The notes beneath the pieces are model-generated. The model saw nothing but the letters and a program-made list of their open reading frames with translations. It did not search any database and was not told the DNA's origin. A program made the translations under genes and the position numbers. Below, one piece after another: positions 57,290 through 57,905 of a stretch of DNA of 64,000 bases. Source of the DNA: Eledone cirrhosa (lineage: Eukaryota); assembly GCA_964016885.1 (NCBI GenBank), contig OZ024748.1:13144001-13208000 (forward strand), written 5' to 3'. Every line of letters starts with the position of its first letter. Within the stretch, counting starts at the first letter, position 1.

Positions 57290-57905
57290 AGAAAGTGAGG
57301 TTTTTTTTACAAAATGAAAAATAACCGAGGTGTCCTACACGAGTGAAAGTATAAAGAAAAAGAGATGAAATCGAAAATGCAACTGGAGTCTTATTTTTTT
57401 AAAAAATATATATATTTATTTGGTTCCTTTAACGGTTTCGCAGTTCTTCTGCTTTTTAAAAGGTGAGTTGAGATGGAGGATCTGTGGTTTTTCTCACAGG
57501 AGATGTGAGAAAAACCACAGGCCCTCCATCTCAACTCACCTTTTGAAAAGCAGAAGAACTGCGAAACCGTTAAAGGAACCAAATAAATATATATATTTAA
57601 AAAAAAAATAAGACTCCAGTTGCATTTTCGATTTCATCTCTTTTTCTTTATATATATATATATATATATATATATATATATATATATATATATATATATA
57701 TATATATATATACACATATATATATATATATATATATATATATATATATATATATATATATATATATATATATATAAAGAAAAAGAGATGAAATCGAAAA
57801 TGCAACTGGAGTCTTATTTTTTTTTTAAATATATATATTTATTTGGTTCCTTTAACGGTTTCGCAGTTCTTCTGCTTTTCAAAAGGTGAGTTGAGATGGA
57901 GGGCC
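57290..57905. mobile_element. Family F triple (-,+,-) arrangement
   Basis: 57350-57498 inverted against 57505-57650; third arm at 57775-57905 across a (TA)n tract; arms near-identical. Confidence 0.9.
57539..57576 (+). ncRNA. Minimal type I hammerhead motif, U3-A8 variant, family F (identical minus copy at 57849-57886)
   Basis: CCTT-TTGAAAA-GCAG AAGAA CTGC-GAAA-CCGT-TA-AAGG. Confidence 0.65.

What the first reader, a model, noticed from the sequence alone, without database searches (positions are those of the whole stretch)
57290..57905. Family F: U3-A8 compensatory hammerhead in a triple (-,+,-) palindromic array
Seen: CCTT-TTGAAAA-GCAG(AAGAA)CTGC-GAAA-CCGT-TA-AAGG. Relative to CUGANGA, positions 3 and 8 are both changed (C to U, G to A). 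Established: C3-G8 is a tertiary Watson-Crick pair in the active hammerhead, so U3-A8 is the expected compensatory form, which argues for selection on function. The 38.7 kb copy reads GAAACCAGTA and these read GAAACCGTTA; each is one change from the palindrome ACCGGT plus a GUA site (inferred ancestor). Two minus-strand motifs (57426-57463 with G5A, and 57849-57886) lie 423 nt apart. That spacing could allow dimeric folding or release of a unit-length RNA, but the long inverted arms would compete.
Basis: partly seen in the sequence, partly recalled or inferred. Interest (0 to 1): 0.7.

Follow-up and report, generated by a model that had tools for sequence, protein, structure and literature searches.

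The report
Decayed Penelope retrotransposon ends with hammerhead
This is an ordinary remnant of a very abundant Penelope-type jumping gene: two head-to-head copies of its short end repeat plus a later mirror copy, each carrying a published variant of a self-cutting RNA motif that is predicted to be broken in these three copies.

Summary
The three motifs are at the stated coordinates. They are the terminal repeat (pLTR) of a Neptune-type Penelope-like retrotransposon: longer copies read pLTR, ORF with reverse transcriptase and GIY-YIG domains, 3' UTR, pLTR. U3-A8 is a real compensatory core but is published, including for Penelope-like elements. Arms 1 and 2 form the family's standard insertion: head to head in (TA)n, with a 61-nt tail on one arm (41 of 49 sampled pairs) and cores 84 nt apart (10 of 19). 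Arm 3 is a 100% mirror of arm 2 across the TA run, so it is a recent fold-back copy or an artefact; reads could not decide. Release of a 423-nt RNA is not supported. All three copies have a broken helix III, one has G5A, and arm 3 is buried in a ~190-bp hairpin. In the intact element the same-strand partner lies 4.8-5.0 kb away. Copy 5' ends pile up 70 nt upstream of the cut site, so uncut RNA was mostly copied. The scan noted the same kind of remnant in another genome, and two-armed insertions elsewhere in this one.

The parts
57260..57288 (.). (TA)n on the left: likely remnant of the target site
   Evidence: 118 of 134 sampled 3' ends are followed by TATATA
57289..57498 (-). Arm 1: inverted, 5'-truncated pLTR copy with the tail
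   Evidence: matches L031 8238-8449
57289..57349 (-). 61-nt tail: the stretch between the two family 3' ends (L031 8388 and 8449), read as two reverse-transcription start sites
   Evidence: 78 arms end at 8449, 53 at 8388, 12 elsewhere, of 143
57426..57463 (-). Hammerhead motif of arm 1: U3-A8, G5A (57457), G16.2U (57432); predicted inactive
57499..57503 (.). Junction between the 5' ends of arms 1 and 2, at the family's 5'-end hot spot about 70 nt upstream of the cut site
   Evidence: 67 of 143 arms start at L031 8235-8246
57504..57652 (+). Arm 2: pLTR copy without the tail
57539..57576 (+). Hammerhead motif of arm 2: U3-A8 core intact, G16.2U (57570) breaks the ACCGGU palindrome; the cut would fall at 57572/57573
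57649..57776 (.). (TA)n run, centre of the arm 2 / arm 3 mirror
57773..57906 (-). Arm 3: exact reverse complement of 134 nt of arm 2, including its rare variants; likely a late fold-back copy
57849..57886 (-). Hammerhead motif of arm 3, identical to that of arm 2
57907..57931 (.). 4-nt filler and right-hand (TA)n
38630..38778 (-). Solo pLTR of the same family (other subfamily, no tail), hammerhead 38703-38738 with a CpG-type change to ACCAGT

Best explanation
The stretch is a decayed insertion of the terminal repeat (pLTR) of an abundant Penelope-like retrotransposon, likely of the Neptune group: two short copies lie head to head in a (TA)n microsatellite, and a third copy likely arose later by fold-back at the TA run. 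Shown: in long copies the same 214-nt repeat lies directly before an ORF with RT and GIY-YIG domains and again after a 1.35-kb 3' UTR, each time with the U3-A8 hammerhead. Inferred mechanism: the element's protein cuts (TA)n DNA. Each DNA end primes reverse transcription inside the RNA at one of two sites 61 nt apart, both next to UAUA tracts. Both cDNAs run through the uncut hammerhead to a fixed point about 70 nt upstream of the cut site (probably the transcript start), and they are joined there. In the parent element the hammerhead would work as a dimer through the palindrome ACCGGU, with the partner 4.8-5.0 kb away or on another molecule, probably helped by protein. The three copies here are predicted inactive.
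For: Family size: 11,539 exact 30-mers. Linkage to a PLE ORF: L031 and L190-L193; Pfam RVT_1 E=2.6e-7 and GIY-YIG E=1.6e-5; CX4CXXC linker before the nuclease, YLDD and GTAMG motifs. 8 of the 24 top ORF hits other than L031 itself have the pLTR directly upstream in the same orientation (L166, 167, 169-172, 174, 177, 183, 186 show it; counting only full 214-nt matches gives 8). Insertion form in an unselected sample of 143 arms from 82 loci: 98 arms in 49 head-to-head pairs, 41 pairs tail plus no tail, none with two tails; 118 of 134 3' ends followed by TA; 67 5' ends at one 12-nt site. Cores are 84 nt apart in 10 of 19 pairs, as in the window. Paired arms share subfamily variants (21 of 24 at one site, 38 of 39 at another). 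The same architecture is described in PMC8557442, and two RT start sites bounding the tail in PMC11167929. Decay of these copies: G16.2U is rare (215 non-G variants, 29 of the first 100 being U); self-duplex -0.3 against -8.3 kcal/mol; G5A in arm 1. Arm 3 is identical to arm 2, while arms 1 and 2 differ at 6 of 149 sites. Mirrors centred on TA runs occur at 7 of 1,134 runs, this one included, some diverged.
Against: Cleavage was not measured for any copy. Clade was assigned from the linker motif, not from a tree. The four long copies examined have broken ORFs. The contigs of public runs could not confirm the locus-specific junctions, so arm 3 may be an artefact. That the 5' hot spot is a transcript start is inferred; no RNA ends were seen. 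A smaller share of arms start at or just after the cut site (10 of 143 at 8306-8316), so some cut templates are not excluded. One mutagenesis study found only the G:C swap rescuing the 3-8 pair in its construct (PMC9901934, passage), so U3-A8 may be a weak core.
Confidence: 0.88

Rival explanations
1. A selected three-ribozyme cassette: the two minus-strand hammerheads fold as a dimer and release a 423-nt RNA that may circularise.
For: Two same-strand motifs lie 423 nt apart. U3-A8 keeps the 3-8 pair and is reported active in vitro (PMC3088659, passage).
Against: Two cuts need two cores, and one is G5A. Helix III has two C-U mismatches in six pairs. The predicted fold of either strand pairs arms 2 and 3 over about 190 bp. 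The 423-nt span includes a 128-nt TA run. No other tail-to-tail neighbour in the sample repeats this unit (3 in 143 arms, all different).
Confidence: 0.03
2. Arm 3 is a sequencing or assembly fold-back artefact at the self-complementary TA run; only arms 1 and 2 are real.
For: 100% identity over 191 nt centred on (TA)n, against 96% for arms 1 and 2. No public contig confirmed the arm 3 junction (the tool skipped that part as repeat). No second assembly copy of the locus exists to compare.
Against: Comparable TA-centred mirrors elsewhere have diverged (55 nt with 4 mismatches, 274 nt with 11), which points to a natural process. Diverged (-,+,-) triples exist elsewhere (L119-L121). The sequence resumes in ordinary flank after 134 nt instead of mirroring on.
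Confidence: 0.25
3. Arm 3 is a separate retrotransposition product inserted into the TA run, from the same source RNA or from a transcript of this locus.
For: TA runs beside old insertions attract new ones (L051, L100). Arm 3 ends at the family 3' end 8388 and is 5'-truncated.
Against: It carries arm 2's rare variants (A8257G, G16.2U, same poly-A run) with no difference, while arm 1, from the same event as arm 2, differs at 6 sites.
Confidence: 0.12
4. A non-autonomous foldback DNA element (MITE-like) or a tandem retrozyme unit.
For: Short inverted arms, TA target, very high copy number.
Against: The arms are asymmetric (tail on one side only), truncate at variable 5' points, and continue into an RT-GIY-YIG ORF in long copies. 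No head-to-tail array of a small unit was seen in the loci fetched.
Confidence: 0.03

Closest known systems
Minimal hammerheads in pLTRs of metazoan Penelope-like elements, including the U3-A8 variant of Schistosoma mansoni Cercyon elements (Cervera and De la Pena 2014, PMC4209133; parts 1-2 of 4 read)
   Same: Type I, palindromic 15.2-16.2 region, G10.1-C11.1, 4-bp helix I, U3-A8 covariation (about 1,300 hits there), mostly truncated copies, pairs on opposite strands about 100-700 bp apart.
   Different: 4-bp helix II without the extra base after A9, a 2-nt palindromic loop 3, and far higher copy number. Among ACCGGT-type motifs here U3-A8 outnumbers C3-G8 about 200 to 1.
Endonuclease-bearing PLEs, Neptune group (architecture as in Craig et al. 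2021, PMC8557442; passages)
   Same: RT then GIY-YIG, CX2-5CXXC linker, partial tandems forming pLTRs, inverted 5'-truncated copy, tail at one end only, microsatellite target.
   Different: The tail is 61 nt rather than 30-40 nt; the 3' UTR is long (1.35 kb) with internal repeats.
PAc (Poseidon clade, Anolis; Frangione et al. 2024, PMC11167929; passages and second half of the main text)
   Same: Two RT start sites bounding the tail, AT-rich target, and mostly uncut RNA as template, which is what the 5' ends here suggest.
   Different: The ORF starts after the tail here, not in stem II. Both start sites abut UAUA tracts that match the (TA)n target, whereas PAc is reported to start without homology to the target.
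Natural U3-A8 hammerheads (Perreault et al. 2011, PMC3088659; passages)
   Same: The same covariation, described as natural and as active in vitro.
   Different: Here it sits in a minimal, dimer-type motif, and activity is untested.
Metazoan non-LTR retrozymes (bioRxiv 10.64898/2026.07.22.740005; passages)
   Same: Derived from PLE ends and carrying a hammerhead.
   Different: No head-to-tail array of a unit here; the arms are inverted.

Membership tests
Type I hammerhead (family state) | Core 3-9, GAAA and UH, with a Watson-Crick 3-8 pair | tested here: met
   U3-A8 in 98 of 101 and 101 of 102 sampled arms; GUA triplet
Type I hammerhead (family state) | Helices I and II around the core, G10.1-C11.1 | tested here: met
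   The predicted fold forms both. Helix I is 4 bp in this subfamily and 3 bp plus a mismatch in the commoner one. No more stable than shuffles.
Type I hammerhead (family state) | Palindromic helix III for dimer formation | tested here: met
   ACCGGU self-duplex -8.3 kcal/mol; 11,539 exact copies
Type I hammerhead (the three window copies) | Intact helix III and core | tested here: not met
   G16.2U in all three (self-duplex -0.3 kcal/mol); G5A in arm 1
Type I hammerhead | Self-cleavage after H17 | not testable with these tools
   The genomic proxy (5' ends at the cut site) was inconclusive
Penelope-like element, EN+ | RT domain followed by GIY-YIG endonuclease | tested here: met
   Pfam PF00078 and PF01541 on linked copies L033, L031, L032
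Penelope-like element, EN+ | pLTRs flanking the ORF and carrying the hammerhead | tested here: met
   L190-L193; both hammerheads found by pattern in L191 and L192, 4.8 and 5.0 kb apart
Penelope-like element, EN+ | Inverted 5'-truncated copy and tail at one end | tested here: met
   41 of 49 pairs; window arms 1 and 2
Neptune group | CX2-5CXXC linker between RT and EN; microsatellite target | tested here: met
   CGRSNCGTC; TA flank in 118 of 134. Nematis also has this linker.
Neptune group | RT phylogeny | not tested
   No reference PLE set was on hand
Non-LTR retrozyme | Head-to-tail array of a hammerhead-bearing unit | tested here: not met
   The arms are inverted; no tandem repeat of this unit among the 150 of 337 rows shown, which did not reach this region, or in the repeat search of 55000-60500
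Non-LTR retrozyme | Circular RNA | not testable with these tools
   No RNA run under this organism's label was listed

The most novel reading that the evidence does not exclude
The thousands of copies record the element's mechanism in vivo. Both ends of a cut (TA)n prime reverse transcription by pairing with UAUA tracts at two sites 61 nt apart, unlike the homology-free start reported for PAc. The minority of arms that begin at or just after the cut site (about 7%) are fossils of real cleavage by a U3-A8 minimal hammerhead, which the papers read here have not shown in vivo for an animal Penelope element.
Probability: 0.2. Interest if true: 0.5.

Novelty: new member of a known kind. Interest (0 to 1): 0.17.

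Why it matters
The locus itself matters little: it is one of many thousands of remnants, and its ribozyme copies are predicted broken. The family is a useful natural dataset for the open question of what Penelope hammerheads do. Nearly half of the sampled copies begin 70 nt upstream of the cut site with the motif intact, which agrees with in vitro work showing that uncut RNA is the main template. It also offers a high-copy U3-A8 minimal hammerhead whose activity can be assayed directly.

Tried and rejected
Rfam scan of the window: only microsatellite and hairpin matches below their gathering scores among the rows shown; uninformative. Genomic footprint of cleavage: I looked for an excess of 5' ends at the cut (L031 8308/8309). 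In the unselected sample, 10 of 143 arms start at 8306-8316 and 10 at 8247-8305. In a targeted pattern search (565 matches, first 100 tallied by eye; 30 checked by script) 40 indel, deletion or duplication variants were set aside; of the remaining 60, 33 started at 8290-8300, none at 8301-8305 and 27 at 8306-8312. The peak at the cut is no higher than the one at the 3' edge of stem II, so stalling at helices, microhomology or early termination explain it equally well. Inconclusive. Selection on the core within the family: 12 of 1,031 substitutions at non-CpG core sites against 303 of 9,684 in flanks (Fisher p=1.3e-4), but copies are related, so I treat this as weak. Public contigs laid on the two junction regions: short pieces dominated by other family copies, repeats skipped, nothing spanning; no verdict on artefact. 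Search for a second assembly copy of the locus: none. Copies continuing past the tail by pattern: uninformative; the ORF-side search found them instead. Lunse et al. 2017 (hammerhead variants of PLEs cleaving as dimers) is not held; I saw only its citation, and it may already test this variant. The protein atlas did not answer. Supplements of the cited papers were not opened and may list cephalopod motifs.

Full report
Observation. They lie in three arms of one repeat. Arms 1 and 2 are head to head and 96% complementary; arms 2 and 3 are tail to tail across a 128-nt TA run and 100% complementary. The window is C8:13144001-13208000 of a 3.0 Gb, microsatellite-rich animal genome; a cephalopod origin is my inference from its repeats.

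Family. The pattern TTGANAA-N8-30-GAAACCGGTH matches 23,342 places (control 63), and the exact family 30-mer 11,539 (control 0). With the same right half, C3-G8 gives 115 (control 162, though it includes one clear family), C3-A8 249 and U3-G8 201. Mismatched cores are thus about 1% each, the level of ordinary decay. Other families in the genome keep U3-A8 or C3-G8 with unrelated stem II sequences. That supports a conserved 3-8 pair across lineages, but the U3-A8 families may share one origin. G at position 16.2 is the family state (106 of 107). The window's U there is rare: 215 exact motifs have a non-G, and 29 of the first 100 listed have U.

What the repeat is. Longer copies extend upstream through a 1.35-kb UTR into a broken ORF with RT (PF00078, E=2.6e-7), a CX4CXXC linker and a GIY-YIG domain (PF01541, E=1.6e-5). 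Searching with the ORF's 5' part found copies in which the same 214-nt repeat lies directly before the ORF start. L190-L193 read pLTR, ORF, UTR, pLTR, with same-strand hammerheads 4.8 kb (L191) and 5.0 kb (L192) apart. Family F is therefore the pLTR of an endonuclease-bearing Penelope-like element. The linker and TA target point to the Neptune group (PMC8557442, passages); no tree was built.

Insertion form. I fetched the 82 loci behind the first 100 of 8,534 matches to an anchor downstream of the hammerhead (first 42 Mb of one contig) and mapped 143 arms. Of these, 78 end at L031 8449, 53 at 8388 and 12 elsewhere; 118 of 134 ends at these two sites run into TA. There are 49 head-to-head pairs; 41 have one tailed and one untailed arm, and none has two tails. 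67 arms start within 8235-8246. Core-to-core distance is 84 nt in 10 of 19 pairs and 78-85 nt in 17; the window's is 84. Paired arms usually share subfamily variants. Arms 1 and 2 are thus the commonest product of this element. An inverted truncated copy with a tail at one end is described for PLEs, and the tail as the stretch between two RT start sites was shown in vitro for PAc (PMC11167929).

Mechanism, inferred. The nuclease cuts (TA)n and each end primes reverse transcription at one of the two sites. In full-length copies both sites abut UAUA tracts, so pairing with the target is plausible. Both cDNAs pass the hammerhead and stop about 70 nt upstream of the cut site, probably the transcript start in the pLTR, and are joined there. 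Templates were therefore mostly uncut. A search for 5' ends at the cut itself was inconclusive: they exist (10 of 143 at 8306-8316) but are no denser than at the edge of stem II.

Arm 3. It equals 134 nt of arm 2 letter for letter, including rare variants, while arms 1 and 2 differ at 6 sites. It is therefore much younger than the insertion, or not real. Mirrors of 40 nt or more centred on TA runs were found at 7 of 1,134 runs in 745 kb of window and fetched loci, with 0 to 11 mismatches, and diverged (-,+,-) triples exist elsewhere. A natural fold-back at self-complementary (TA)n is most likely. Public contigs could not confirm the junction, and the assembly holds no second copy of the locus.

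Function here. Helix III drops from -8.3 to -0.3 kcal/mol as a self-duplex in all three copies, and arm 1 has G5A. G5 is part of the consensus core (PMC3088659), and changes in CUGA give low activity (PMC9901934, passage). Releasing the 423-nt piece needs two cuts and so both cores, whether they fold singly or as a dimer (my reasoning from the standard topology). Predicted folds of both strands pair arms 2 and 3 over about 190 bp.

Comparison with what is known. U3-A8 was reported as a natural covariation, already active in vitro, in 2011. In 2014 it was reported in Schistosoma PLE hammerheads, about 1,300 hits, alongside opposite-strand pairs about 100-700 bp apart. A full-text search for 'hammerhead' with 'U3-A8' returned only that paper. 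The Octopus vulgaris repeat annotation does not mention ribozymes or Neptune in its main text (PMC13282606, term search). Searches showed no description of this particular family, but repeat databases, supplements and Lunse et al. 2017 could not be seen. Earlier scan notes describe the same kind of remnant in another genome and two-armed insertions elsewhere in this one; I reached my reading before seeing them.

Verdict. Observation confirmed; interpretation partly supported. It is a new member of a known kind, with predicted-inactive copies at this locus. Interest 0.17.

Noticed in passing
window 58053-58470: A second head-to-head insertion of another family, arms 100% complementary over 125 nt, with a C3-G8 hammerhead-like core (CTGAAGA, long stem II, GAAA-TATA-TA); a related motif lies near 38297-38345.
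   Followed up: no
window 19169-19204 (+) and 47017-47052 (-): Two copies of another minimal hammerhead family; the first has G8A without a change at position 3, the second is canonical.
   Followed up: no
window 55551-56188 and 56330-56500: A 262-nt inverted repeat (94%), followed by what reads as a fragment of a LINE-type reverse transcriptase (FADD motif, read by eye).
   Followed up: no
L202, L203 (G000:C1:91259580-91259900 and 131568920-131569240): A repeated motif CTGAGAA-stem-GAAACCGGTT with an apparent C3-A8 mismatch fixed in a family (8 of the first 100 rows); it may be read in another register or may not be a ribozyme.
   Followed up: partly
L204, L205: A repeated CTGAAAA...GAAACCGGTA motif with a very short middle, about 20 of the first 100 rows; whether it is a hammerhead is unclear.
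   Followed up: partly
L194-L201: Several other U3-A8 and C3-G8 families with ACCGGT have only about 2 bp or no helix I as read from DNA; splicing might supply it, as reported for Drosophila Penelope.
   Followed up: no
L031 8357-8403 (window 57621-57652 and the tail): A pyrimidine tract followed by TAG inside the pLTR looks like a 3' splice site upstream of the ORF start.
   Followed up: no
L031 4175-4358: A local inversion of part of the ORF's 5' region at the junction of the two arms, not present in the other copies.
   Followed up: partly
G000:C1:348863669-348911675 (L119-L121): A 9.6-kb tandem array in which each unit carries a (-,+,-) triple of this family with a C3-A8 core, amplified with its surroundings.
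   Followed up: partly
rows: 5 inverted pairs among the first 100 rare-variant motifs share the same rare base in both arms, as arms 1 and 2 do here; inherited from the source RNA or converted between arms.
   Followed up: partly
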